64,000 nt of DNA, taken from the sequence record NC_100331.1, one strand, 5' to 3'. Below the pieces are notes generated by a model. The model did not search any database and was not told the origin of the DNA. It saw only the letters and a list, made by a program, of their open reading frames with translations. The DNA comes from Escherichia phage vB_EcoS_HASG4. The position numbers were made by a program, and so were the translations under genes. Shown in pieces: positions 4,112-37,884 of this stretch (position 1 is its first letter; every line of letters starts with the position of its first letter).

Positions 4112-4209
4112 GGTAAAAACTCCTATTAGTTTAATTTAAGGGATAAGATTAACATAATGTTAATCGTTATATACCCCGAACTACTGGGGTATATAAAGTT
4201 AACACTAAA

Positions 4210-4461
4210 TTACAAAACAGCTTCCCATTTTTCGTTGCGTTGAACAACCTTTACAACATCGCCGGATTTAACGCGAACGCTAAAAACGGTTTTGCCGTTG
4301 TTACTGCGTTCCGTTTCAGCGTATACCGCGTCGATTGTATCGAACGGCATAAGCGCCGCACCTTTAATGCGTTCGGCCTTTCCGGTTAACTCATCCGTTT
4401 TAGTAACGAAAGGAATAAAAACGGATTGACCAATTTTTGGCGCGGTAATAACGTTTTGCAT
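4210..4461 (-). CDS. hypothetical protein
   Basis: 83 aa ORF. Confidence 0.45.
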   Translation of the reverse strand: MQNVITAPKIGQSVFIPFVTKTDELTGKAERIKGAALMPFDTIDAVYAETERSNNGKTVFSVRVKSGDVVKVVQRNEKWEAVL

Positions 4462-29082: not shown

Positions 29083-29334
29083 TCAGCCATTAGAGAGTAT
29101 AGTACTGGTAGTTGGCAATATTACAGATGAAGCAACAGTGTTTAAATGCTTTCTCCAGTCTAGGTTAAATTGTTTTCGAAACTCTTCATAAGGTTCTTCT
29201 GGATAAAAGCTAAAACCTCCTTTCTCATCATTCAGGATGACAGAGCCGTCAGTTTGTTCGTATGCTCGGTATGTTTCTCCAATAACAATAACTCGTTTAT
29301 CGGTACTTTTATTACGAAACTCAAAAACGTGCAT
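29083..29334 (-). CDS. hypothetical protein
   Basis: 83 aa; RBS AAGGA. Confidence 0.5.
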   Translation of the reverse strand: MHVFEFRNKSTDKRVIVIGETYRAYEQTDGSVILNDEKGGFSFYPEEPYEEFRKQFNLDWRKHLNTVASSVILPTTSTILSNG

Positions 29335-29341
29335 AACGTTT

Positions 29342-29417
29342 CCTTAAAGTTGGAGCGGCTAGAGGGAATCGAACCCTACTCAGCGAGGCTTGGAAGGCCT
29401 GCGACACAACCCGTGTG
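29342..29417 (-). tRNA. tRNA-Gly (TCC)
   Basis: loop CTTCCAA; 3' end GCCGCTCCA and T-arm GGGTTCGATTCCC as in bacterial Gly(UCC). Confidence 0.7.
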
Positions 29418-29425
29418 CTTAACCG

Positions 29426-29501
29426 CTTATTGTTTGGCTGGAGAAGGAGGAATCGAACCTACCATTAACGGAGTCAAAGGCCGTTGTGCTAACCGTTACA
29501 C
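29426..29501 (-). tRNA. tRNA-Gln (TTG)
   Basis: starts TGGAG, ends CCAGCCA (U1-A72, G73); loop centre TTG. Confidence 0.7.
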
Positions 29502-29507
29502 TACTCT

Positions 29508-29583
29508 CCAATTGTTTGGCTGGAGTGCCTGGGATCGAACCAGGAACCTTCGGAGTCAGAGGCCGACGATCTGCCAATTGATC
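29508..29583 (-). tRNA. tRNA-Gln (CTG)
   Basis: paralog of previous; loop CTCTGAC. Confidence 0.7.
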
Positions 29584-29601
29584 TACACTCCAAAAATGCT
29601 A

Positions 29602-29838
29602 TTAATTAGACGCTGTCTCTACTGGCTGAGATACAGCAGGCTGTTCTAACGTATCTGGTGCTGATACGGAGAAAAGAGCTTGTAATGCTGCAATATCACG
29701 CTCGTAAGTATCAATACGAGTAGTAAGAGTATCTACCATCTGTTTATGATAGGCTAAGTTATTCTGAGATTCATCTCGAAGAGTTTGCAGTTCTGCAAGA
29801 CGTGTTAACATAATTTCACTAATTAAAGCATTACTCAT
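29602..29838 (-). CDS. hypothetical coiled-coil protein
   Basis: 78 aa. Confidence 0.45.
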   Translation of the reverse strand: MSNALISEIMLTRLAELQTLRDESQNNLAYHKQMVDTLTTRIDTYERDIAALQALFSVSAPDTLEQPAVSQPVETASN

Positions 29839-30028
29839 TTGTTTCTCCTAAATTTTCCGGTTCTTCTAAACGTTTGCCTTCATGATCTACTCGAATAACT
29901 CCGCATCCTTCGCAAATCACAACTGCACCATAACCTTCTTTGACTTCGGCTTCTGTAATCAAACCAGAAAGATCACCAGTATCTCTGCCCCACATATCAA
30001 TGGAGCATTGTTTGCAGAAATCAGCCAT
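29831..30028 (-). CDS. small Cys-containing protein
   Basis: 65 aa; CxxC...CEGC. Confidence 0.45.
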   Translation of the reverse strand: MADFCKQCSIDMWGRDTGDLSGLITEAEVKEGYGAVVICEGCGVIRVDHEGKRLEEPENLGETNE

Positions 30029-30053
30029 ATTTTATTTCCTATTTAAGTTAATT

Positions 30054-30130
30054 TGGGGTGGCTAGTGGAATTCGAATCCACATAGGCCTGATTCACAATC
30101 AGGATCATTAACCAATTATGATATAGCCAC
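30054..30130 (-). tRNA. tRNA-His (GTG)
   Basis: anticodon arm CCTGA-TTGTGAA-TCAGG; T-arm GTGGATTCGAATTCCAC. Confidence 0.8.
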
Positions 30131-30360
30131 AATTGAAAACTCGCAGGGTTAGCGAAACCATCCTCAATTAGCATGTTCTAGAATACTAATCAAGTTATCT
30201 CCTATTGCACGCAGCTCAAGACGAGTACGAATTTTCAATTATGGCGGCTCTCAGAAACTCTTCTATTCTAGCCTCAGAAGCTTACCCCCGAACGCATGTC
30301 GGGAAAGTCTTTCCAAGCGCATCAAATAGCACCGTTACACTTTGAGCCATTGATGTATCA

Positions 30361-30460
30361 AGGAATAGAAGGACTTGAACCTTCATGAGTTAGACCATTT
30401 AACTCAACCGCTTTTAAGGTATATTTCTAGGAGTGGATGTTCCTAGTAAACCTATTCGGC
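30361..30460 (-). ncRNA. tRNA-like element with Leu-type T-arm (atypical; boundaries uncertain)
   Basis: GAAGGTTCAAGTCCTTC T-arm and two 6-bp hairpins; could not be folded into a canonical cloverleaf. Confidence 0.3.
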
Positions 30461-30691
30461 AGTCCCGTCTACCAATTCCGGCATATTCCAAGAATTTTTA
30501 TAAACCAGCAGAAGCCTCATTTAAAGCATCAACAATAGCTTCACGCTGGGTCATTCCATACCCGGTGGAATCTAGGTGTGGCAAATAAGCCATCCATCCC
30601 TTATCTGTTTCATGAAGACATGCTTTAAATTTCTTACCATCCTTCATTGTTACAGTAACTGTTTCGCTCATAAGATTTCCTTATAGTTAAT

Positions 30692-30781
30692 TGGCAGAAG
30701 ATAATGGAGTCGAACCATCACCGTATCGCTACAGCGGGCTGGTTTTCAAGACCAGTTACGTACCACTACGTCCTATCTTCT
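30692..30781 (-). tRNA. tRNA-Ser (TGA)
   Basis: 90 nt type II; acceptor AGAAGAT/ATCTTCT; anticodon arm CTGGT-CTTGAAA-ACCAG. Confidence 0.8.
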
Positions 30782-30794
30782 AGTATTTATTATA

Positions 30795-31142
30795 CTAATA
30801 GTCACTTGTACTAGTGAAGTTTTCTACTTTTCCACAGATTTTACAAGTCCTACGATGATAGTAGGTAATTTTTACTTTAGACCAGCCATCGTGATCATTA
30901 CCTAGATTTTCTGTTACTCCCCAAGTATGAGAACACTCATTTTCAATTTGCTTAGTAAGAGCGTTATAGCGAGTATAAAACTCCTCCTGAGCAATAGCAA
31001 ATTCTTTCTGTAGTTTATCACGAGCAATAATAGCACGTTCCAGATATGTTAAATCAGGCATTCCAGCTTTTTCAGCAGCATCTATAATCTTATCTTCATC
31101 TAAAGATGCTAAAAACTCTAGAGCTTTATCTTTTGCTAGCAT
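30795..31142 (-). CDS. hypothetical protein with C-terminal zinc-ribbon-like CxxC pair
   Basis: 115 aa. Confidence 0.5.
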   Translation of the reverse strand: MLAKDKALEFLASLDEDKIIDAAEKAGMPDLTYLERAIIARDKLQKEFAIAQEEFYTRYNALTKQIENECSHTWGVTENLGNDHDGWSKVKITYYHRRTCKICGKVENFTSTSDY

Positions 31143-31161
31143 TATTATTACCTCAAGTGTT

Positions 31162-31252
31162 TGGCGGAAGAGGAGAGATTTGAACTCTCAAGCCGTTTTA
31201 CCAGTCAGCCACTTTCCAAGCGGTTTTCGTCGCCAATTCGATTTGCTCTTCC
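31162..31252 (-). tRNA. tRNA-Ser (GGA)
   Basis: 91 nt type II; starts GGAAGAG; loop TTGGAAA; T-arm GAGAGTTCAAATCTCTC. Confidence 0.75.
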
Positions 31253-31364
31253 AATAATAAGATGATGCCTCTATCACACCAGGCAGTTACGCCTCGCTGG
31301 GATTCGAACCCATTAAAACAGCTCAACCGAGATAGTAGGTTTAATTTACTCTGACCATCAAATT

Positions 31365-31441
31365 TGGTGCGTGACAAGGGATTCGAACCCTCAAAACCCG
31401 ACTTCTAAGGACGGTATGTATGCCAATTCCATCAATCACGC
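31365..31441 (-). tRNA. tRNA, anticodon loop CTTAGAA (reads TAG; Leu-decoding?)
   Basis: 77 nt; acceptor GCGTGAT/GTCACGC; T-arm GAGGGTTCGAATCCCTT; short variable loop. Confidence 0.55.
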
Positions 31442-31446
31442 GTATT

Positions 31447-31525
31447 TGGTGGAGAATAACGGAATCGAACCGTTCTGATGTCCTCGGTGCAAGCGAGGTG
31501 TCCACTCCATGCAGACCCATTCCCC
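31447..31525 (-). tRNA. tRNA-Ala (TGC)
   Basis: acceptor GGGGAAT with G3-U70 wobble; anticodon arm CCTCG-CTTGCAC-CGAGG. Confidence 0.8.
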
Positions 31526-31748
31526 AAATTCTTTAGTTTACTAAGGCTATTAGCTCGGCGTAACTACAGCACCTTCGCTTCGGGCGGAAGGAACTGCGTC
31601 ATCTCGCAAACCCAATACACTATTCAGTTGCCGCTGAATCTAGTGGACCAATCTAGAACTTCTCCCGAATCATGGGGATCGTGCTTTTTGGCAGCCAGTC
31701 CTAGGTCGAGCTAATACCTTAGTGAACTATGATGAGGATCTCTCCTCA
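31526..31748 (-). ncRNA. candidate non-coding RNA region downstream of a promoter cassette
   Basis: 223 nt without ORF; cassette at ~31749-31780 points into it; hairpin ccttcgcttcgggcggaagg. Confidence 0.3.
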
Positions 31749-31784
31749 TCAATTTATATAAATATTATAACAAGAAATTAAGCA

Positions 31785-32153
31785 TTAAGCAAGTACATTT
31801 TTAGCGATTTCTTGTAGTTCCTTTACATCACGAACGTAAAGGTAATCAGAGCTTCCAGAGTGCATACTTTGCATAACCACACCTTCATCTGGTGCATTAT
31901 CCTTCAAAGTAATTCCTAACCAGAACTCGGCAAAACTAGGTGTTACCTCACCTTGACTTGCCTTGAATACATCATATTCTGTAAGTTCTTGACCAGTAGA
32001 TAATCCCAAATAGACAGAACTAAGATCAATCTCTTTATGAGACTCATAAAATTCCGATAGATCTTTTTCCATATCCCAGCCATGCTGTAACGCGAACTCC
32101 ATTGTCACATGACCGAAATAACCTTGAATCTTGCTTGATAATTGCATTTGCAA
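31785..32153 (-). CDS. hypothetical protein
   Basis: 122 aa; RBS AAGGAA. Confidence 0.5.
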   Translation of the reverse strand: MQMQLSSKIQGYFGHVTMEFALQHGWDMEKDLSEFYESHKEIDLSSVYLGLSTGQELTEYDVFKASQGEVTPSFAEFWLGITLKDNAPDEGVVMQSMHSGSSDYLYVRDVKELQEIAKNVLA

Positions 32154-32172
32154 TTCCTTATTTTGAGTTAAT

Positions 32173-32246
32173 TGGTACTCGGTGATAGAATCGAACTATC
32201 GCAACCGCCGTGTAAAGACGGGGTTCTCCCATTAAACTAACCGAGC
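32173..32246 (-). tRNA. tRNA-Val (TAC)
   Basis: anticodon arm CCGTC-TTTACAC-GGCGG; T-arm GATAGTTCGATTCTATC. Confidence 0.75.
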
Positions 32247-32250
32247 AATT

Positions 32251-32329
32251 TGGTAGATCGCCTGGGACTCGAACCCAGAACCTTCCGATTAAAAGTCGGA
32301 TGCTACTGAACCTATTGAGCTAGCGATCT
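32251..32329 (-). tRNA. tRNA-Lys (TTT)
   Basis: anticodon arm TCCGA-CTTTTAA-TCGGA; T-arm CTGGGTTCGAGTCCCAG. Confidence 0.8.
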
Positions 32330-32518
32330 ATTAGTAACCATTGTATACTTCTTTAATAGAGTGAACTTTCAAGTAGGGGTGATTAGTATTAAACTCTACC
32401 ATTACTTCATCCCAATTTTTACCATAATGAGCGAGTAAGGATTTTGATGTATTCTTACCTAAACGTTTGTCACTTACTACTAATCGAAATACTTTCATTT
32501 CGAAATCCTCTATTAAAA

Positions 32519-32596
32519 TGGGAGCGGGTGCAGGAATCGAACCTACCTCTTTCTAGCTTATGAGACTAGCGATCTCTACCAGAGATCTAACCCGCA
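32519..32596 (-). tRNA. tRNA with CAT anticodon (Met-type)
   Basis: loop CTCATAA; 1-72 mismatch; T-arm GTAGGTTCGATTCCTGC. Confidence 0.7.
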
Positions 32597-32602
32597 ATTG
32601 TT

Positions 32603-32680
32603 TGGTCTCCGTGGGAGGATTTGAACCCCCGACCCTATCGCCCCAAACGAAACGCTCTGGCCAAACTGAGCTACACGGAG
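32603..32680 (-). tRNA. tRNA-Pro (TGG)
   Basis: D-stem GCTC/GAGC; loop TTTGGGG; T-arm GGGGGTTCAAATCCTCC. Confidence 0.75.
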
Positions 32681-32684
32681 AATA

Positions 32685-32843
32685 TTATTTCTTCAACCAC
32701 AACAAAGATAAGCCCAGCATACTAAAGCCGCTAACTAATCCGATACATTTTTCTTCTGTAGTAAAAGTATCTAGATTAAATGCTGTTATAGCTATTGGCA
32801 TACACCATAATGCCATAAAAACTTGAGCTATCTTGTGTTTCAT
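32685..32843 (-). CDS. small membrane peptide
   Basis: 52 aa ORF below track cutoff; promoter cassette and RBS directly upstream. Confidence 0.35.
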   Translation of the reverse strand: MKHKIAQVFMALWCMPIAITAFNLDTFTTEEKCIGLVSGFSMLGLSLLWLKK

Positions 32844-33054
32844 TTTGCTTTCCTTCTCTTCACTTTATAAAATATATTATACAGAGAATTAAGCATAATA
32901 GCAAATGAATTTTTAATAAATTTACTTATTGTGTAGGCCACCTGGAGGCTACCAACCCCACGGCTGACAAAGAAGTTTGCGAGACCCCTCTTAAATGCCA
33001 GAATAGACCCGCCGATCTATCGGAACCTACATAATAAGTAAACTTTATAGTGTC

Positions 33055-33174
33055 ATTCTAGACAGGACTCGAACCTGTTATCACTTGTGCGGACTTACGA
33101 GAACCATTCTTTCACTCGAATCGAACGAGCTTCTGCCCTCGCCAAGCTGGTTTCCCCATCAACCACGCTAGAAT
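33055..33174 (-). ncRNA. tRNA-like RNA of atypical length (~120 nt)
   Basis: perfect 7-bp acceptor-like pairing ATTCTAG/CTAGAAT; T-arm ACAGGTTCGAGTCCTGT; second T-like hairpin; too long for a tRNA. Confidence 0.35.
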
Positions 33175-33296
33175 GTTTGATTGTTTTCAGTGCAAGAGTC
33201 CGAGTCTTGGACACGACCGCTTCGCAAATACATAGGCAGCTTATCATGAGTCAGCACTTCCGAATTGCTAGCTCCGTGTTCTGCACTGAAATTTTA

Positions 33297-33644
33297 TTAG
33301 TTTAACCGTAAAGTATTATCTACTTCACCATTAATTGTTCGGCATTCCTCAGGGATTGCTGGTGTAGTCTTATACTCCCACCATTCAGAACCATCATATT
33401 CACCACGTTCTAACCAAGTTCCGTCAGTAAACCATACGTTACCATAAAGCAATTGTCCACCGAAACCAGAATCATATTTAAAGTCTAGATTATTTAGAAA
33501 ATCTTCAATATCTTTTTCTGTATAACCTACGGGTAATACCCAAACTTCTTTGTCCCCATAATAACCGAATTCTATCTTAATACACTTAACTTCAGACTTA
33601 GTATTCTTTAGGGCAAGTAACAACTCTTCTTTAGCATTAATCAT
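33297..33644 (-). CDS. hypothetical protein
   Basis: 115 aa. Confidence 0.5.
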   Translation of the reverse strand: MINAKEELLLALKNTKSEVKCIKIEFGYYGDKEVWVLPVGYTEKDIEDFLNNLDFKYDSGFGGQLLYGNVWFTDGTWLERGEYDGSEWWEYKTTPAIPEECRTINGEVDNTLRLN

Positions 33645-33670
33645 AGCATATTTCTCGTACTAGTTTAGTT

Positions 33671-33746
33671 TGGTACACCCACTAGGACTTGAACCTAGAA
33701 CCCTCCGCTTAAGAGGCGGTAGCTCTAACCATTGAGCTATGGATGT
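33671..33746 (-). tRNA. tRNA-Lys (CTT) candidate
   Basis: acceptor ACATCCA/TGGGTGT; D-stem GCTC/GAGC; loop CTCTTAA; T-arm CTAGGTTCAAGTCCTAG. Confidence 0.6.
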
Positions 33747-33929
33747 ATATTTGAAGAATCTCTCGTAAGAATTTCTTCAAATACCCTCTCCTGTGAAAAA
33801 GGGGGGTTTGCTTAATTATTGTGGCTAGGGCGCGGTAAAGTAGCTTTCTAGTCGGAAGCCCCAGAGCATATCCGTCTAAAGACCATATGTGACCTCCCCT
33901 ATCTTTACCTACTCTGTACCATAATTGTT

Positions 33930-34006
33930 TGGCGCGACCGATGGGATTTGAACCCACATTCCCTCCCGTGACAGGGGAGTACCATTACCAAGCCAGCCCC
34001 GGTCGC
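33930..34006 (-). tRNA. tRNA-Asp (GTC)
   Basis: anticodon arm CTCCC-CTGTCAC-GGGAG; T-arm TGGGTTCAAATCCCA. Confidence 0.8.
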
Positions 34007-34015
34007 ATAATTCAT

Positions 34016-34201
34016 TTACTCAGCTTTGAGTTTTTCAATAGCTGCATTAAGTTCTTTAAGAAACTCTTTTCGTACATTAAGACGATTAAGACTTACTAGT
34101 ATATCCTGTTTAAGTTCTTCGATGTATTTCTTCTCAACTTCAATATTGTTGATAGTGCTATCACGATGAACTTCTAACTGTGCAATTACATTCTTGGACA
34201 T
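34016..34201 (-). CDS. small coiled-coil protein
   Basis: 61 aa. Confidence 0.4.
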   Translation of the reverse strand: MSKNVIAQLEVHRDSTINNIEVEKKYIEELKQDILVSLNRLNVRKEFLKELNAAIEKLKAE

Positions 34202-34303
34202 GACTGTTTCCTCAGTTATTAATGAAAATGGTATCTGTGGCTGAATTCGATATCAGCAATGATAGCTGGTTGGCTACCGGTTTACTTAACTCTACACAGA
34301 ATT

Positions 34304-34386
34304 TGGCGGGCCGTGTAGGATTCGAACCTACGTTGTCTTTCGACATGGATTAACAGTCCACCGCCAAACCGCTTGGCTAACGACCC
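34304..34386 (-). tRNA. tRNA-Asn (GTT) candidate with extended variable arm
   Basis: 83 nt; anticodon arm GTGGA-CTGTTAA-TCCAT; ~13-nt variable hairpin GTC-GAAA-GAC. Confidence 0.65.
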
Positions 34387-34396
34387 TAAATTTATA

Positions 34397-34536
34397 TTGC
34401 TGACTAGGATTTTCACCTAGACGGAGTTAGCACCGTAGCGTGTAGCGGCATACCTCTCCAAACCGTGCCTCATCTTTCAATTACGGAGACAGTGTTCCTA
34501 CGCGTGCCTGAATTGATTTAACAATTCTTTCAGCAA
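34397..34536 (-). ncRNA. tRNA-like RNA of atypical length (~140 nt)
   Basis: 7-bp acceptor-like pairing TTGCTGA/TCAGCAA; T-arm-like hairpin CTAGG-TGAAAAT-CCTAG next to the 3' strand. Confidence 0.3.
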
Positions 34537-34538
34537 AT

Positions 34539-34614
34539 TGGACGACCGCATGAGATTTGAACTCACATAAAAAGGATTTGCAATCCTTCGCCTAAGCCAT
34601 TCAGCCAACGGTCG
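34539..34614 (-). tRNA. tRNA-Cys (GCA)
   Basis: anticodon arm AAGGA-TTGCAAA-TCCTT; discriminator U; T-arm GTGAGTTCAAATCTCAT. Confidence 0.8.
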
Positions 34615-34686
34615 ATTTATCTTGTTCTGTCATGTTGCTTCTCCAGTTCAATTTATGTAATTATTATTATACAGAACTTTTGGAAA

Positions 34687-34974
34687 CTAAGCAACTACAT
34701 TTTTTAAGAATTTGATGCCTTTCTTTTTCTTCTTATATTTCCACGTTAAGGGATTCTGTCGATTATGAACGCTTGAGATCTTCGTCTCGTCAAAGTTCTT
34801 CAATATCATGTAATCACAAGATAATTGTTCTAATGGAATGTGATCACCGTCAAAAGCATATACATAAGGCTGTTGACTAGCACGATAATGATAGACTTTG
34901 TTAATTCTACGTTTCAGCGACTTATCAGCGCAGTAAATAAAGAAGTTTTCAGGATGCATCAGCAGCTCCTTCAA
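34687..34974 (-). CDS. hypothetical protein
   Basis: 95 aa. Confidence 0.5.
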   Translation of the reverse strand: MKELLMHPENFFIYCADKSLKRRINKVYHYRASQQPYVYAFDGDHIPLEQLSCDYMILKNFDETKISSVHNRQNPLTWKYKKKKKGIKFLKNVVA

Positions 34975-34976
34975 TT

Positions 34977-35051
34977 TGGTGCACCCTGTTCGTATCGAAC
35001 GAACCTCTCAAGCTCTTCAGGCAAGCGCTAATCCATCTCAGCTAAAGGTGC
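34977..35051 (-). tRNA. tRNA-Phe (GAA) candidate
   Basis: loop CTGAAGA; T-arm GTTCGTTCGATACGAAC; anticodon stem imperfect. Confidence 0.65.
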
Positions 35052-35057
35052 AAATTT

Positions 35058-35128
35058 TGGCAGGGGTAAAGGTATTCGAAACCTTTTCATGGGTTTTGGA
35101 GGCCCATTTGCAACCTATGCGTACCCCA
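35058..35128 (-). tRNA. tRNA-Trp (CCA), short D-arm
   Basis: 71 nt; loop CTCCAAA and 3' end CCCCTGCCA resemble bacterial tRNA-Trp. Confidence 0.65.
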
Positions 35129-35137
35129 ATTGTTAAT

Positions 35138-35212
35138 TGGCACACCCACGGAGAATTGAACTCCGATTCTCAGATTGAAATCCTGATGTCCTGGCCATTA
35201 GACGATAGGTGC
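35138..35212 (-). tRNA. tRNA-Glu (TTC)
   Basis: D-arm GTCTAATGGCCAGGAC resembles bacterial tRNA-Glu; anticodon arm TCAGG-ATTTCAA-TCTGA. Confidence 0.75.
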
Positions 35213-35220
35213 ATTAAATT

Positions 35221-35308
35221 TGGTGGGCGTTAATGGAGTCGAACCACTCGAGTCGCAATGACCAGGGATTTACAATCCCCTCCGCTACCACTTACGGAAT
35301 AAACGCCC
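35221..35308 (-). tRNA. tRNA-Tyr (GTA)
   Basis: 88 nt type II; anticodon arm GGGGA-TTGTAAA-TCCCT. Confidence 0.8.
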
Positions 35309-35436
35309 ATATTTAGAAGCATTCAAATACTTGTTTAAACACTTTTAAATATGTTTCCAAATTAGATAACTATTATACCAAGTTTTAAGGCACTGAGCAA
35401 GTCAAATTTTGAAGAACTTGCTCAGTGCTGTATTAG

Positions 35437-35712
35437 TTAGTCGAACTTAGGAGTGACAGCTAAGGAGAACGGAAGTTCAAAAACTTCTTCCCCCTCATTA
35501 CTAACGGTAACTACACGACCTTTAAGTTCAGACATTAAAATATCAATATCAGCTTTTGCATCTGGAGCCATGCCAGCTTCAATACATTTAGCTTTAACTT
35601 CTGGTAAAAGCTCTACGTTATAGAGATAGAGCCACTCAATCTCACCTTCCCAGTCTTCCCAGGATTTGCAGATTGCACTTTCAATACCAGTTGCTACAAC
35701 ACGATTTTGCAT
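35437..35712 (-). CDS. hypothetical acidic protein
   Basis: 91 aa; promoter cassette upstream. Confidence 0.5.
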   Translation of the reverse strand: MQNRVVATGIESAICKSWEDWEGEIEWLYLYNVELLPEVKAKCIEAGMAPDAKADIDILMSELKGRVVTVSNEGEEVFELPFSLAVTPKFD

Positions 35713-35802
35713 TAATTAACTCCTTCATCAATTTATACAACTATTATATCAGAAATTTAAAGCAAAAGGCAAGTACATTTTTAAAAATTCTATTCGGAGG
35801 AG

Positions 35803-36009
35803 CTAAACTCCAGATTCTTCAGCTAAGTCTAGGCTAATAAGAGTTATAGCCATAATTGCTGCACCGTGTTCTTTTTCTCCGGTGTTTTTAGCAGAGTCTA
35901 TAATAGTCTTAATCTGTTCGTAATAGCCTTTTACTTCTTGTTCAATACCTGCCTCGGCTATCATGCCTTTAGTCATGATTCGTTGCATAGTAATTTCACG
36001 GTTAGCCAT
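35803..36009 (-). CDS. small hypothetical protein
   Basis: 68 aa. Confidence 0.4.
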   Translation of the reverse strand: MANREITMQRIMTKGMIAEAGIEQEVKGYYEQIKTIIDSAKNTGEKEHGAAIMAITLISLDLAEESGV

Positions 36010-36198
36010 GTTGTTTCTCCAGCTTCATTTTTAATAGTTTACAAATGAAATCAACGTCTTCATCTGTACCTAGATCTCTATCTTCAAGGGTTGCCTTGAA
36101 ATTTTTCGTTAGTTCCATAAGAATAACTTCCCTAGAACGACGTGTTGGCGGAGGTGGATGTCTATACATCTTAATTCCTTAATTTGGTAGGGATTATA

Positions 36199-36882
36199 TC
36201 ATCTACTTTTCTTAATACTTTTAGGATCTTTCCCTGTTAGGGACTTATACCTTTTCCTTAATCCAGTATCAGACAATCCTAGTTCTTTGGAGGCACGAAT
36301 CCAGGAATATTTAGATACCCAGTACTCTATTTGCTCCACAGTAATATCTGGATTTATAGTTATCTCTTTAGGAGTACATGATTTACAGTGTGTTGCTCTT
36401 GAACTAATTTCGCAGTGACAAATAGCACACGTATTTACAGTTCTTTCTGTATACCTGCCAATATTTTTGCCTGCATGAGTAGGTGTTAGTGCATGGCAAT
36501 TTGGACATAGGAGGGCTAAGTTATCCCATTCATTATTATAGTGATTTCCATCCTTGTGTTCGAGTTCTAAAGGAATTGGTTTGTCTAACCAACTTTCTAA
36601 GCCACAACTCTCACACTTATGTGGTTTTAGCCCCTCGTTAAGAATTTTATTCTTTAGTTTATAGGAAGAAATAGGGCTGCCGTTATATAAATACTCTGTT
36701 GCAGACTTATATTTATTATCATACTGCCTATTCGCAGGAATAACTACTATTCCTAGTTTTCCTAAATATGCTTCCAAAGTGTTCGAGGAGCAGGATAGCA
36801 TTCTTGCTATCTCTGCTTTAGATTTTCCCTGAGCTATCCACTGAGCTATTTCTTCCTTTCTATCTAGTATATCAGTTCTCAT
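36199..36882 (-). CDS. HNH homing endonuclease with N-terminal HTH
   Basis: 227 aa; CESCG...HKDGNHYNNEWDNLALLCPNCH zinc/HNH motif. Confidence 0.7.
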   Translation of the reverse strand: MRTDILDRKEEIAQWIAQGKSKAEIARMLSCSSNTLEAYLGKLGIVVIPANRQYDNKYKSATEYLYNGSPISSYKLKNKILNEGLKPHKCESCGLESWLDKPIPLELEHKDGNHYNNEWDNLALLCPNCHALTPTHAGKNIGRYTERTVNTCAICHCEISSRATHCKSCTPKEITINPDITVEQIEYWVSKYSWIRASKELGLSDTGLRKRYKSLTGKDPKSIKKSR

Positions 36883-36905
36883 AGTTTATGACTTTATAAT
36901 TAAGT

Positions 36906-36983
36906 TGGTGGCTCCCCGAGGATTCGAACCTACGTACCTTCCGGTTATGAGCCGGGTGCTCATACCATATGAGCTTGAGAACC
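36906..36983 (-). tRNA. tRNA with CAT anticodon (third copy)
   Basis: acceptor GGTTCTC/GGGAGCC; anticodon arm CCGG-CTCATAA-CCGG. Confidence 0.7.
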
Positions 36984-36989
36984 AAAATC

Positions 36990-37079
36990 TGGCGGAAGAA
37001 GTGGGAATCGAACCCACAAGGCTATATTTCAAACCGACAGATTAGCAATCTGCTGCAATACCGTTATGCTATTCTTCCG
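36990..37079 (-). tRNA. tRNA-Ser (GCT)
   Basis: 90 nt type II; starts GGAAGAA; anticodon arm GCAGA-TTGCTAA-TCTGT; promoter cassette abuts 5' end. Confidence 0.8.
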
Positions 37080-37099
37080 AATTTATAAGATATATTATA

Positions 37100-37618
37100 T
37101 TAGAAATTTAGCTTCATAGCAAGAAAATTTTTCAAGTTTTCGGTAGACATCTCATCCACATCTACGGGAGAAACAAATCCATTTAATTGTCTAGCAAACT
37201 TTTCACCAGCAGGATCATTGTCCCCAACAGCTACCAATTTAAAAGGTAGTAATTTCAGTTGCTTTAATAACGCTTTTCCTGGAGAAGAACCCAACATTGC
37301 CAGGGCTGGATAACCAGCATTATGTAACGCAACTGCCTTAAATACAGATTCAGCAATCAATACTACTTTTTCATCTCCATTGAGAGTTTCTAGTCCCCAT
37401 ACACACTGGGTAGTAGAATAAGTAAAATATTTAGCTTCAAAGGGGCACTTACCATGACCTTTTGGAGCAGAAGGATTATAAGTTTGATAGCCCCTCAACA
37501 TCCCAGAGAAGTCATACAACGGGACTGTTAGCCATCCTTCCGGACTTAACCAGCAATGATATTTATCTGTATCAAATCCTCTAGATAAGAGGTGCTGTGT
37601 TAGCTCATCAACATTCAT
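37100..37618 (-). CDS. TOPRIM-like domain protein
   Basis: ORF 37100-37669 trimmed (track start read through promoter cassette); IAESVF...GDNDPAGEKFA resembles TOPRIM. Confidence 0.5.
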   Translation of the reverse strand: MNVDELTQHLLSRGFDTDKYHCWLSPEGWLTVPLYDFSGMLRGYQTYNPSAPKGHGKCPFEAKYFTYSTTQCVWGLETLNGDEKVVLIAESVFKAVALHNAGYPALAMLGSSPGKALLKQLKLLPFKLVAVGDNDPAGEKFARQLNGFVSPVDVDEMSTENLKNFLAMKLNF

Positions 37619-37633
37619 ATTTGGTTCCTCTCT

Positions 37634-37658
37634 CAAATTTATAGATATATTATACAGA
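37634..37658 (-). promoter_or_regulatory. conserved early promoter-leader cassette (example)
   Basis: plus-strand caaatttatagatatattatacaga. Confidence 0.6.
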
Positions 37659-37793
37659 GAATTTAGCATTCAAGCAATCAAATTTTTTAACTTTTTAGAG
37701 GAAAATCATAGGGCACTTAAGGGTAGCAGATAAGTGGTGAGGACCAAAATTTGTGACCCAACTAAAAATCCGGGGGCAATTTTTAAAGACCCC

Positions 37794-37822
37794 TTGACAT
37801 TTTCGCGGGGGTAGTGTAAAGT
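37794..37822 (+). promoter_or_regulatory. host sigma70-type promoter (TTGACA-17-TAAAGT)
   Basis: ttgaca at 37794-37799, 17-bp spacer, taaagt at 37817-37822; differs from the phage cassette used by neighbours. Confidence 0.65.
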
Positions 37823-37884
37823 ATATGTTATGGATGAGTGATCAAAGAGACACACATTTTCTATATACTAGGAGGTGTCAAAAA

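What the first reader, a model, noticed from the sequence alone, without database searches (positions are those of the whole stretch)
33055..34536. tRNA-like RNAs of atypical length within the tRNA cluster
Two elements (33055-33174, ~120 nt; 34397-34536, ~140 nt) have perfect 7-bp acceptor-like terminal pairing and a T-arm hairpin but are far too long for a tRNA. They resemble the RNase-P-processed stable RNAs that some phages encode beside their tRNAs. A Leu-type T-arm element at 30361-30460 and unresolved T-arm motifs at 31253-31364 and 41199-41270 may be related or degenerate tRNAs.
Basis: seen in the sequence. Interest (0 to 1): 0.6.

Follow-up and report, generated by a model that had tools for sequence, protein, structure and literature searches.

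The report
Phage T5-type tRNA-shaped small RNAs
Two over-long "tRNAs" in this T5-like phage's tRNA cluster are real, conserved tRNA-shaped RNAs that cannot decode: one is the long-known T5 "RNA2", and the other is an unannotated relative in design that also occurs in an unrelated phage family; what either does is unknown.

Summary
The window is Escherichia phage vB_EcoS_EASG3, a T5-like phage. Both elements exist as described, on the minus strand.

Element 1 (33054-33174) is 98% identical to T5 RNA2, which GenBank annotates as a "tRNA-like stable RNA with unknown functions". It is already known.

Element 2 (34396-34536) is absent from T5, unannotated in every record sampled, and has no Rfam match. 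It occurs in about 218 phage genomes, including Mydovirus myoviruses of a different family.

Covariation supports a tRNA-shaped fold for both. Each has a 7-bp acceptor stem, a D-like arm and a T arm, and a 52-70-nt structured insert replaces the anticodon loop. In element 2, 97% of pair positions form standard pairs and 15 pairs changed on both sides, against 0-2 in shifted controls. In RNA2 the figures are 94% and 19 pairs, against 2-4.

Neither element is protein-coding, an ordinary tRNA, a tmRNA or an intron-bearing tRNA. Both are dispensable: T5 and DT57C lack element 2, and viable T5 deletion mutants lack RNA2.

The most likely reading is that they are co-transcribed with the tRNAs, matured by tRNA-processing enzymes, and carry a conserved insert with an accessory role. 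The processing route is inferred and the role is unknown.

The side claims resolve as follows: 30361-30460 lies in T5 RNA1; 41199-41270 is a degenerate tRNA inside RNAX; 31253-31364 stays unresolved.

The parts
34396..34536 (-). Element 2: a 141-nt tRNA-shaped RNA gene (acceptor 5' end to discriminator U). Unannotated and absent from T5. Starts 2 nt after the CCA of tRNA-Cys and ends 9 nt before tRNA-Asn.
   Evidence: Model R1 scores 172 bits. Covariation. Sequence and sub-feature coordinates verified.
34530..34536 (-). Element 2 acceptor-like stem, 5' strand UUGCUGA. Pairs with 34397-34403 (UCAGCAA).
   Evidence: Four of 7 pairs changed on both sides and 100% of cells pair (helix 1).
34510..34527 (-). 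Element 2 D-like arm GAAUUG-UUAAAU-CAAUUC (6 bp; the loop has no GG).
   Evidence: Five of 6 pairs changed on both sides (helix 2).
34429..34508 (-). Element 2 central domain. A long helix (GGCAC-G-CGUAG / CUACG-GUGCU) takes the place of the anticodon arm. It encloses hairpin A (34466-34491), hairpin B (34446-34465) and the invariant linker CUACACG (34439-34445).
   Evidence: Two pairs of the central helix and two of hairpin A covary. The 19-nt core AUGCCGCUACACGCUACGG is invariant in all clades.
34404..34420 (-). Element 2 T arm CUAGG-UGAAAAU-CCUAG, with a non-canonical T loop.
   Evidence: One pair is compensatory (A-U to U-A) and the loop is invariant.
33054..33174 (-). Element 1: the homologue of T5 RNA2 (the T5-annotated bounds map to 33051-33175). 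A 121-nt class-I tRNA-shaped RNA with a 52-nt insert replacing the anticodon loop.
   Evidence: 98% identity to AY543070 rna2. Model R2 scores 147.5 bits. Covariation.
33083..33147 (-). RNA2 central domain. Helix GCUUGGC / GC(A)CAAGU plus GGGC/GUCC, an inner hairpin with a T-loop-like loop GCUCG-UUCGAUU-CGAGU (33114-33130), and a single-stranded stretch GAAAGAAUGGUUCUCGUAA (33095-33113).
   Evidence: Five of 11 central-helix pairs changed on both sides. The inner stem is wholly replaced (UACGG/CCGUA) around a conserved loop. CUCGUAA is invariant in 14 sequences.
33062..33078 (-). RNA2 T arm ACAGG-UUCGAGU-CCUGU (canonical T loop).
   Evidence: Two of 5 pairs changed on both sides.
30349..30492 (-). 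Homologue of T5 RNA1 ('tRNA-like stable RNA'). Leu-like D loop, long variable arm, T arm AAGG-UUCAAGU-CCUU, and a roughly 40-nt insert in the anticodon region.
   Evidence: 98% identity to AY543070 rna1. Diverged copies show compensatory changes.
41199..41270 (-). Degenerate tRNA-like sequence inside the homologue of T5 RNAX (about 40697-41333).
   Evidence: Rfam tRNA 36.8 bits; ARAGORN 'Ser(act)'. Other records label it RNAX, tRNA-OTHER, tRNA-Ser or nothing.
31253..31364 (-). Unresolved structured spacer with an internal T-arm-like hairpin. No T5 counterpart (T5 has the endonuclease gene hegC here).
   Evidence: Only copies above 97% identity were seen, so covariation could not be tested.

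Best explanation
Both elements are genes for tRNA-shaped RNAs that do not decode. They sit in the phage's polycistronic tRNA cluster. Each keeps the parts of a tRNA that the cell's maturation machinery recognises: a 7-bp acceptor stem, a T arm and a D-like arm. In place of the 7-nt anticodon loop, each carries a long helix with a conserved, structured insert of 52 nt (RNA2) or about 70 nt (element 2).

Shown here: the folds are maintained by compensatory evolution. Element 1 is T5 RNA2. Element 2 is a distinct family shared with an unrelated phage family, and the homology stops at the element's own boundaries. Neither is coding. Both are dispensable.

Inferred: they are co-transcribed with the flanking tRNAs, cut at the 5' end by RNase P, and trimmed and given CCA at the 3' end like phage tRNAs. 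The tRNA body would then give defined ends and stability, and the insert would be the working part.

Guessed: the insert binds or distracts a host or defence factor that handles tRNA. That would give an accessory advantage on some hosts rather than an essential function.
For: Identity of the window: 100% match to Escherichia phage vB_EcoS_EASG3, genus Tequintavirus.

Element 1: 98% identical to the T5 gene rna2, annotated 'tRNA-like stable RNA with unknown functions'.

Structure of element 2: 11 distinct sequences, 97% of cells paired, 15 pairs changed on both sides against 0-2 in slid controls, and no shuffle out of 500 reached the observed score.

Structure of RNA2: 14 sequences from Tequintavirus, Epseptimavirus, Sugarlandvirus, Erwinia phage KEY and Pectobacterium phage DU_PP_V. 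94% of cells pair and 19 pairs changed on both sides against 2-4. All 7 acceptor pairs covary.

Spread across families: element 2 occurs at 74% identity in Vequintavirinae/Mydovirus, between two tRNA-Ser genes, and the similarity is confined to the element.

Processing context: element 2 starts 2-4 nt after the 3' CCA of an upstream tRNA in all four clades. No minus-strand terminator lies between tRNA-Cys, element 2 and tRNA-Asn. RNA2 copies in INF11 and the Sugarland-type phages are followed by an encoded CCA in register. Ordinary tRNAs score 10-25 bits against the RNA2 model.

Not coding: the only ORFs are 44 aa or shorter, and those overlapping element 2 also run into the flanking tRNA genes. 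Substitutions follow the stems.

Accessory: T5 and DT57C lack element 2, and DT57C also lacks RNA2. The viable T5 deletions T5Mos and T5123 remove RNA2 and RNA1 (PMC11464382).

Phage-specific: no match in 5,426 E. coli genomes.
Against: No transcript data were available here. Stability, the exact ends, CCA addition and RNase P cleavage are all inferred. For RNA2 they rest on a GenBank label whose primary papers I could not read.

Element 2's T loop (UGAAAAU) and D loop (no GG) lack the usual elbow contacts, so recognition by RNase P or the CCA-adding enzyme may be weaker than for a tRNA.

Element 2's diversity amounts to four clades, so several 'compensatory' counts trace back to few evolutionary events, and the alignments were fitted to the model structure.

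Nothing here identifies a binding partner. The decoy idea is untested. The anticodon-loop-like heptamer seen in RNA2 is not conserved at the equivalent site of RNA1.

Frequent natural loss could also mean the benefit is weak.
Confidence: 0.75

Rival explanations
1. They are decaying tRNA genes, disrupted by insertions, that persist as neutral remnants without a function of their own.
For: The tRNA cluster is full of mobile endonuclease genes and degenerate tRNAs: 41199-41270, a 77-nt Leu(UAG) that one record calls a pseudo-tRNA, and T5.069 replacing element 2. Both elements are dispensable and often absent.
Against: Helices inside the insert, not just the tRNA-derived arms, are kept by compensatory changes. 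The insert holds invariant runs of 19 nt (element 2) and 7-8 nt (RNA2) across phage genera and families at 74-79% overall identity. Element 2 moved between phage families as a discrete unit.
Confidence: 0.07
2. They act only in cis, as processing punctuation. The tRNA-like shape recruits RNase P and 3' nucleases to cut the long early transcript and to release or stabilise neighbouring tRNAs and small mRNAs. The excised RNA itself has no role.
For: The spacing to flanking tRNAs is tight. All the other T5-type misc_RNA homologues in the window are also closed by a terminal helix, and some have CCA-like tails. tRNA-like punctuation is an established principle in mitochondria and for MALAT1/mascRNA (general knowledge).
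Against: An acceptor/T-arm minihelix would be enough for punctuation. That would not explain the conserved, covarying 52-70-nt insert or its invariant single-stranded motifs. Adjacent tRNAs already provide RNase P sites.
Confidence: 0.1
3. They are functional tRNAs. They either carry an intervening sequence that is removed, or they decode with an unusual anticodon arm.
For: RNA2 has an invariant CUCGUAA heptamer, like a Thr(CGU) anticodon loop, directly 5' of a stem strand. Some RNA2 copies encode CCA.
Against: There is no Rfam group I or group II intron match, and the inserts are far too short for self-splicing. The heptamer sits at the end of an 11-bp helix, not a 5-bp one. Acceptor sequences and the discriminator base vary freely, so no synthetase identity set is conserved. 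Element 2 has no anticodon-like loop. The equivalent motif in RNA1 is not conserved.
Confidence: 0.03
4. Element 2 is a tiny tmRNA-like or peptide-coding RNA. It contains GGAGAGG followed by a 12-codon AUG...UGA frame, and the Mydovirus copy keeps that frame.
For: The frame AUGCCGCUACACGCUACGGUGCUAACUCCGUCUAGGUGA and its stop are kept in both clades.
Against: ARAGORN finds no tmRNA. The acceptor has G3-C70 or A3-U70, not the G3-U70 needed for alanine charging. The first seven codons are invariant at the nucleotide level, third positions included. Downstream changes are non-synonymous and match stem covariation. The purine run lies only 1-2 nt from the AUG.
Confidence: 0.02

Closest known systems
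Bacteriophage T5 RNA2 and RNA1 (GenBank AY543070 genes rna2 and rna1, 'tRNA-like stable RNA with unknown functions')
   Same: Element 1 is RNA2 (98% identity, same position). 30349-30492 is RNA1. Element 2 shares their design: acceptor stem, D-like arm and T arm, with a structured insert in place of the anticodon loop, located inside the tRNA cluster.
   Different: Element 2 is absent from T5, and neither model detects the other family (R1 does not hit RNA2, R2 does not hit element 2). Its T loop and D loop are non-canonical, whereas those of RNA1 and RNA2 are canonical.
Bacteriophage T4 species 1 and species 2 RNAs (rnaC, 139 nt; rnaD, 119 nt)
   Same: Small stable RNAs encoded at the end of a phage tRNA cluster. 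Their sizes are almost the same as elements 2 and 1. rnaC has a canonical T arm near its 3' end. Their roles are still unknown (PMC3014915).
   Different: No sequence or covariance-model similarity. The resemblance is analogy or very remote ancestry, not demonstrated homology.
tRNA-like domain of tmRNA
   Same: An acceptor stem plus T arm with a reduced D region, joined to a non-tRNA domain.
   Different: ARAGORN detects no tmRNA. There is no G3-U70, no tag reading frame under coding selection, and the element is 141 nt rather than about 360 nt.
Bacterial Y-RNA-like YrlA and other tRNA mimics (general knowledge, not tested beyond Rfam)
   Same: Non-coding RNAs in bacteria and phages that copy the tRNA shape and are handled by tRNA enzymes.
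   Different: In YrlA the RNA termini form the Ro-binding stem and the tRNA-like module is distal. Here the termini form the acceptor stem. The Rfam scan at E<=10 gave no match to any family at these loci.
Engineered tRNA scaffolds for expressing RNA inserts (general knowledge)
   Same: The layout is the same: an insert replaces the anticodon loop so that the tRNA body provides processing and nuclease resistance.
   Different: That is a laboratory device. Nothing here shows that nature uses the same logic.

Membership tests
Canonical tRNA (Rfam RF00005 / ARAGORN) | Detected by tRNA covariance or heuristic models | tested here: not met
   No ARAGORN call and no RF00005 match at 33054-33174 or 34396-34536, even at E<=10.
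Canonical tRNA (Rfam RF00005 / ARAGORN) | 7-bp acceptor stem followed directly by a 5-bp T stem with a 7-nt loop | tested here: met
   Present in both elements and supported by covariation. Element 2's T-loop sequence is atypical (UGAAAAU).
Canonical tRNA (Rfam RF00005 / ARAGORN) | 5-bp anticodon stem closing a 7-nt loop with an anticodon | tested here: not met
   Replaced by a 10-11-bp helix that encloses inserts of 52 nt (RNA2) or about 70 nt (element 2).
T5 RNA2 (AY543070 rna2) | Sequence homology and the same position in the cluster (between the T5.067 homologue and RNAIV/promoter P13a) | tested here: met
   Element 1 is 98% identical over 151 nt, and the flanks are collinear at 97% over 453 nt.
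T5 RNA2 (AY543070 rna2) | Accumulates as a stable transcript in infected cells | not testable with these tools
   Known only from the GenBank label. The primary papers were not in the library.
T5 RNA2 family, applied to element 2 | Match to the RNA2 covariance model | tested here: not met
   R2 gives no hit at 34396-34536. R1 gives no hit at RNA2 or RNA1.
T5 RNA1 (AY543070 rna1), applied to 30361-30460 | Sequence homology and position downstream of tRNA-His, RNAIII and RNAI | tested here: met
   98% identity across 367 nt that cover rnaIII, rnaI and rna1.
T4 species 1/2 RNAs (rnaC/rnaD) | Sequence or structural homology | tested here: not met
   Pairwise alignments show no meaningful similarity. 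R1 and R2 give no significant hit on the T4 locus beyond its ordinary tRNAs.
tmRNA | Detected by ARAGORN; G3-U70 alanine identity pair; tag reading frame | tested here: not met
   One search finds none. Pair 3:70 is G-C or A-U. The short frame shows no coding-type conservation.
Intron-containing tRNA (group I) | Group I intron core inside the anticodon loop | tested here: not met
   No intron family match in Rfam. Inserts of 52-70 nt are far below group I size.
RNase P substrate class (any tRNA-like precursor) | Cleaved by RNase P at the 5' end of the acceptor stem | not testable with these tools
   The architecture and the 2-4-nt spacing after an upstream CCA are compatible. No cleavage data exist.

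The most novel reading that the evidence does not exclude
Element 2, and perhaps RNA2, is a natural tRNA-scaffolded decoy. The tRNA body gets it processed and stabilised, and the invariant insert traps or inhibits a host factor that acts on tRNAs, such as an anticodon-arm nuclease of an anti-phage defence system. Phage tRNA clusters would then carry dedicated RNA anti-defence genes in addition to replacement tRNAs. Hints, none of them tests: T5 tRNAs are already known to counter PARIS and retron defences, and the authors of one study raise the possibility that viral tRNAs also inhibit the nuclease AriB (PMC12409363). RNA2 displays an invariant Thr(CGU)-like loop with the UAA(U) motif next to a stem. 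Element 2 has been exchanged between unrelated phages of enterobacteria as a discrete module.
Probability: 0.15. Interest if true: 0.8.

Novelty: new member of a known kind. Interest (0 to 1): 0.4.

Why it matters
Phage tRNA clusters have recently become important because individual T5 tRNAs neutralise tRNA-cleaving defence systems. The non-tRNA RNAs in the same clusters have had no assigned function for about forty years, and standard annotation pipelines miss them. Element 2 was unannotated in every record sampled out of about 218 genomes.

This work gives element 2 and RNA2 covariation-supported structures, exact boundaries, searchable models, and natural presence/absence contrasts. It also shows that element 2 moves between phage families as a unit. 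Together these make the question of what these RNAs do directly testable, by deletion and by plating on hosts that carry defence systems.

If they prove to be only processing by-products, the practical gain is better annotation of T5-like therapeutic phage genomes.

Tried and rejected
2. A known Rfam family: no match at E<=10.
3. Homology of element 2 to T5 RNA1/RNA2 or to T4 rnaC/rnaD: alignments and both covariance models were negative.
4. Bacterial origin: scanning 185,579 species genomes with the 17-nt core gave 43 hits in unrelated GC-rich genomes. My arithmetic gives about 70 expected by chance, so these are uninformative. E. coli genomes gave nothing.
5. Finding more distant element-2 relatives. 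The gapped pattern CGCGTAGG...ATGCCGC returned more than 120 chance matches. The T-arm pattern added only L073. The metagenome scan returned the same clades plus two chance hits.
6. Pseudoknot UGGAG x CUCCG in element 2: mixed result, with one compensatory pair, one consistent pair and one broken pair. Left as a possibility (helix 6).
7. Anticodon-loop mimicry as a shared rule: RNA2's CUCGUAA is invariant, but RNA1's CUUAAAA is not conserved. Not adopted as a general rule.
8. Protein-coding reading: no credible ORF.
9. MAFFT misaligned the Mydovirus acceptor strand, so model-guided alignments were used. They lean towards the given structure, although the compensatory changes are also visible in ungapped raw sequence.
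10. The primary 1980s papers on T5 stable RNAs could not be found in the library.
Full report
**Source and setting**

The window is 100% identical to Escherichia phage vB_EcoS_EASG3 (MK373799.1; Demerecviridae, Tequintavirus). Window coordinate equals record coordinate plus 39. ARAGORN finds 23 tRNA genes between 27.8 and 41.3 kb, all on the minus strand. Rfam at gathering threshold agrees and adds one more at 36909-36983. Neither tool, nor Rfam at E<=10, reports anything at the two loci of the finding.

**Observation**

Read on the minus strand, 33055-33174 has the terminal pairing AUUCUAG/CUAGAAU and the T arm ACAGG-UUCGAGU-CCUGU. 34397-34536 has UUGCUGA/UCAGCAA and the T arm CUAGG-UGAAAAU-CCUAG. 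Single-sequence folding energy is not exceptional (z = -0.94 and -2.11), so the sequence alone does not show that these exceed chance. The comparative data do.

**Element 1 is T5 RNA2**

The T5 record AY543070 annotates eight misc_RNA genes in its tRNA region: rnaIII, rnaI, rna1, rna2H, rnaIV, rna2, rna3 and rnaX. Its rna1 (144 nt) and rna2 (125 nt) are labelled "tRNA-like stable RNA with unknown functions" (AY692264 carries the same genes).

Element 1 aligns to rna2 at 98% identity, and the flanks are collinear. The window holds homologues of all eight T5 RNAs.

About 480 phage records contain an RNA2-like sequence, 407 of them covering at least 80% of the query. Almost none annotates it.

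**Structure of RNA2**

I collected 14 distinct copies, from Tequintavirus, Epseptimavirus (gmork, Yersinia phiR2-01), Salmonella phage INF11, Sugarlandvirus, Erwinia phage KEY and Pectobacterium phage DU_PP_V.

RNAalifold and a covariance model (R2) give a class-I tRNA shape:
- a 7-bp acceptor stem;
- a 5-bp D stem with a GG-containing loop;
- a central helix GCUUGGC/GC(A)CAAGU, extended by GGGC/GUCC;
- a 4-nt variable loop;
- a canonical T arm.

Where the anticodon loop should be, there is a 52-nt insert. It contains a hairpin with a T-loop-like loop (GCUCG-UUCGAUU-CGAGU) and a single-stranded stretch with the invariant motifs AAUGG and CUCGUAA.

Pair counting gives 94% of cells paired and 19 pairs changed on both sides, against 2-4 when partners are slid by 1-3 columns. 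No shuffle out of 500 reached the observed covariation score. All seven acceptor pairs covary. The inner hairpin's stem is wholly replaced (UACGG/CCGUA) around the same loop in the diverged group.

INF11 and the Sugarland-type copies are followed by an encoded CCA in register. Ordinary tRNAs score 10-25 bits against R2, which confirms the tRNA-like body.

**Element 2 is a separate, unannotated family**

T5 has no copy. Between its tRNA-Cys and tRNA-Asn it carries ORF T5.069 instead. That ORF has a T5orf172/MUG113 domain, which I recall as a fold related to GIY-YIG nucleases and typical of mobile endonuclease genes. A natural isolate, DT57C, also lacks element 2. One T5-like genome (L060) has the 5' half of the element replaced by other sequence.

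Element 2 is present in 218 phage records, 215 of them covering at least 80% of the query. In the 45 rows listed, the only annotated features under the match are the neighbouring tRNAs or short "hypothetical proteins".

The copies fall into four clades: Tequintavirus; a Yersinia phiR2-01 type; Sugarlandvirus; and Klebsiella myoviruses of Vequintavirinae/Mydovirus (NDO71, P8734, BIS47). The last group belongs to a different phage family. There the element lies between two tRNA-Ser genes at 74% identity. In the reciprocal search the similarity covers only the element itself (query positions 7-152 of a 166-nt query centred on it). It therefore behaves as a discrete, transferable gene.

**Structure of element 2**

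A hand-built structure, checked in Python, was made into model R1 and used to re-align 11 distinct copies. The structure is:
- a 7-bp acceptor stem;
- a 6-bp D-like arm with loop UUAAAU (no GG);
- a long central helix GGCAC-G-CGUAG / CUACG-GUGCU, enclosing hairpin A, hairpin B (CGGU/GCCG with the purine-rich loop UUGGAGAGGUAU) and the invariant linker CUACACG;
- an 8-nt variable region;
- a T arm with the unusual loop UGAAAAU;
- discriminator base U.

Counting gives 97% of cells paired and 15 pairs changed on both sides, against 0-2 in slid controls. No shuffle out of 500 reached the observed score. Per helix, the pairs changed on both sides are 4 of 7 (acceptor), 5 of 6 (D-like), 2 of 10 (central), 2 of 6 (hairpin A) and 1 of 5 (T arm).

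The main compensatory changes are visible in raw, ungapped sequence:
- acceptor: UUGCUGA/UCAGCAA, UUACUGA/UCAGUAA, UUGUCUA/UAGACAA;
- T stem: CUAGG/CCUAG, CUUGG/CCAAG.

A possible pseudoknot (UGGAG x CUCCG) gets mixed support (helix 6). A 19-nt core, AUGCCGCUACACGCUACGG, is invariant in all clades.

Two caveats apply. Four clades mean few independent events, and the alignment was fitted to the model.

R1 does not detect RNA2, RNA1 or T4 rnaC/rnaD. It is also silent on Erwinia KEY, Pectobacterium DU_PP_V and the INF11 region. Scans of viral, genome and metagenome collections added no new clade. E. coli genomes have no match.

**What it is not**

- It is not protein-coding. ORFs are 44 aa or shorter, those overlapping element 2 also run into the flanking tRNA genes, and substitutions follow the stems.
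- It is not a tmRNA (no ARAGORN call; pair 3:70 is G-C or A-U).
- It is not an intron-bearing tRNA. No intron family matches, the inserts are too short, and the would-be anticodon arm is 10-11 bp long.
- A specific aminoacyl-tRNA synthetase is unlikely to charge it, because acceptor sequences and the RNA2 discriminator base vary freely.

**How it probably works**

Shown: these are conserved, tRNA-shaped, non-decoding RNA genes embedded in the tRNA cluster.

Inferred: they are co-transcribed and matured by the tRNA pathway. The evidence is as follows.
- Element 2 begins 2-4 nt after the CCA of an upstream tRNA in every clade.
- No minus-strand terminator intervenes.
- All the other T5-type misc_RNA homologues in the window are also closed by a terminal helix, and some have CCA-like tails (rnaI ends ...GAGCC-G-CCA; rna3 ends ...ACCA).

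The tRNA body would then provide defined ends and stability, and the conserved insert would be the functional part.

The role is accessory, because natural and laboratory phages without these RNAs are viable (T5Mos deletion 30661-38625 and T5123 deletion 29191-32442, PMC11464382).

Guessed: the insert acts as a decoy or inhibitor for a tRNA-handling host or defence factor. T5 tRNAs are known to counter the PARIS nuclease AriB, which recognises a UAAU motif at the junction of anticodon loop and stem, and those authors raise possible inhibition by viral tRNAs (PMC12409363). RNA2's invariant CUCGUAA(U/G/A)UCC resembles a Thr(CGU) loop in that context. However, the equivalent site of RNA1 is not conserved, and nothing was tested.

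**Comparison with known systems**

The closest are T5 RNA1 and RNA2 (identity for element 1; the same design but a different family for element 2) and T4 species 1 and 2 RNAs. The T4 RNAs share the setting and nearly the same sizes, and their roles are still unknown (PMC3014915). No homology to them was detected.

**Side claims**

- 41199-41270 is a degenerate tRNA-like sequence inside RNAX. Records label it inconsistently.
- 31166-31252 is a tRNA-Ser(GGA) that ARAGORN missed.
- 31253-31364 folds into a closed structure with an internal T-arm-like hairpin. It has no T5 counterpart, and only near-identical copies were seen, so it stays unresolved.

**Verdict**

Element 1 is already known. Element 2 is a new member of a known kind. 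Interest is moderate: the existence of such RNAs is old knowledge, but element 2 is a well-supported, overlooked RNA family that is mobile between phage families, and it sits in a locus that is now central to the contest between phages and tRNA-targeting defences.

Noticed in passing
window 31166-31252 (-): A tRNA-Ser(GGA) that ARAGORN and the EASG3 record both miss: acceptor GGAAGAG/CUCUUCC, anticodon loop UUGGAAA, long variable arm. It is about 71% identical to T5 tRNA-Ser2(GGA), and at least one other record annotates it as tRNA-Ser.
   Followed up: partly
window 36909-36983 (-): Rfam calls a tRNA here (40.3 bits) that ARAGORN and the EASG3 annotation miss. It sits just downstream of tRNA-Ser(GCU), where T5 has tRNA-Ile2(CAU).
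   Followed up: partly
window 29354-29427 (-): A weak tRNA-clan match (30.9 bits, below threshold) just upstream of the two tRNA-Gln genes, at the position where T5 has tRNA-Gly(UCC). It may be a degenerate or atypical tRNA-Gly.
   Followed up: no
window 31253-31364 (-): A structured spacer closed by GAUGGU/AUCAUC and CCU(A)CUAUC/GAUAGAGG, with an internal T-arm-like hairpin UGGG-UUCGAAU-CCCA. It is absent from T5, which has the endonuclease gene hegC here. Only copies above 97% identity were found.
   Followed up: partly
window 31365-31441 (-): The tRNA-Leu(UAG) here is only 77 nt and has no long variable arm, which is unusual for a bacterial-type tRNA-Leu. It did not match T5's 85-nt tRNA-Leu1 in a BLAST comparison. 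The Yersinia phiR2-01 record labels its copy 'tRNA-Pseudo-TAG'.
   Followed up: no
L073 about 4184-4248 (-) (IMGVR_UViG_3300032312_001269): In an unrelated phage contig, directly after tRNA-Gly, lies an uncalled mini tRNA-like element of about 65 nt plus CCA: GCGGAAA...UUUCCGC-U-CCA. It has the same odd T arm as the Mydovirus copy of element 2 (GUCUUGGUGAAAAUCCAAGU). R1 scores it 20.9 bits. The UGAAAAU T-loop variant may mark a wider class of phage tRNA mimics.
   Followed up: partly
L003 8007-8525 (T5 ORF T5.069); L060 about 1055-1500: In T5 the place of element 2 is taken by an ORF with a T5orf172/MUG113 domain. In another T5-like genome (L060) the 5' half of element 2 is replaced by other sequence carrying small ORFs. 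The element is a hotspot for replacement.
   Followed up: partly
window 30132-30348, 31545-31716, 32930-33032, 34229-34301 (-): The homologues of T5 rnaIII, rnaI, rna2H, rnaIV and rna3 are all closed by a 5'/3' terminal helix. Some are followed by CCA-like tails (rnaI ...GAGCC-G-CCA; rna3 ...ACCA). This suggests that the whole set of T5 'stable RNAs' is matured like tRNAs.
   Followed up: no
window 33095-33101 (-); L069, L054, L070: RNA2 carries an invariant heptamer CUCGUAA (Thr(CGU)-anticodon-loop-like) directly 5' of a stem strand in all 14 sequences. Copies in INF11 and the Sugarland-type phages encode a 3' CCA in register, whereas T5 and EASG3 have ACA.
   Followed up: partly
window 34413-34451 (-): Element 2 contains a 12-codon AUG...UGA frame preceded by GGAGAGG, and the Mydovirus copy keeps it. 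The conservation pattern fits RNA structure, not coding.
   Followed up: partly
window 33747-33929: A 183-nt unannotated spacer between tRNA-Lys(CUU) and tRNA-Asp. It has no T5 counterpart and contains a GC-rich hairpin (CCCCCCUUUUUCACAGGAGAG on the minus strand). tRNA-Lys(CUU) itself is also absent from T5.
   Followed up: no
window 40697-41333 (-): Homologue of T5 RNAX, annotated in T5 as a 719-nt 'stable RNA with unknown functions' directly after tRNA-Arg(UCU). It contains the degenerate tRNA at 41199-41270. It has no Rfam match and is a large uncharacterised RNA.
   Followed up: no
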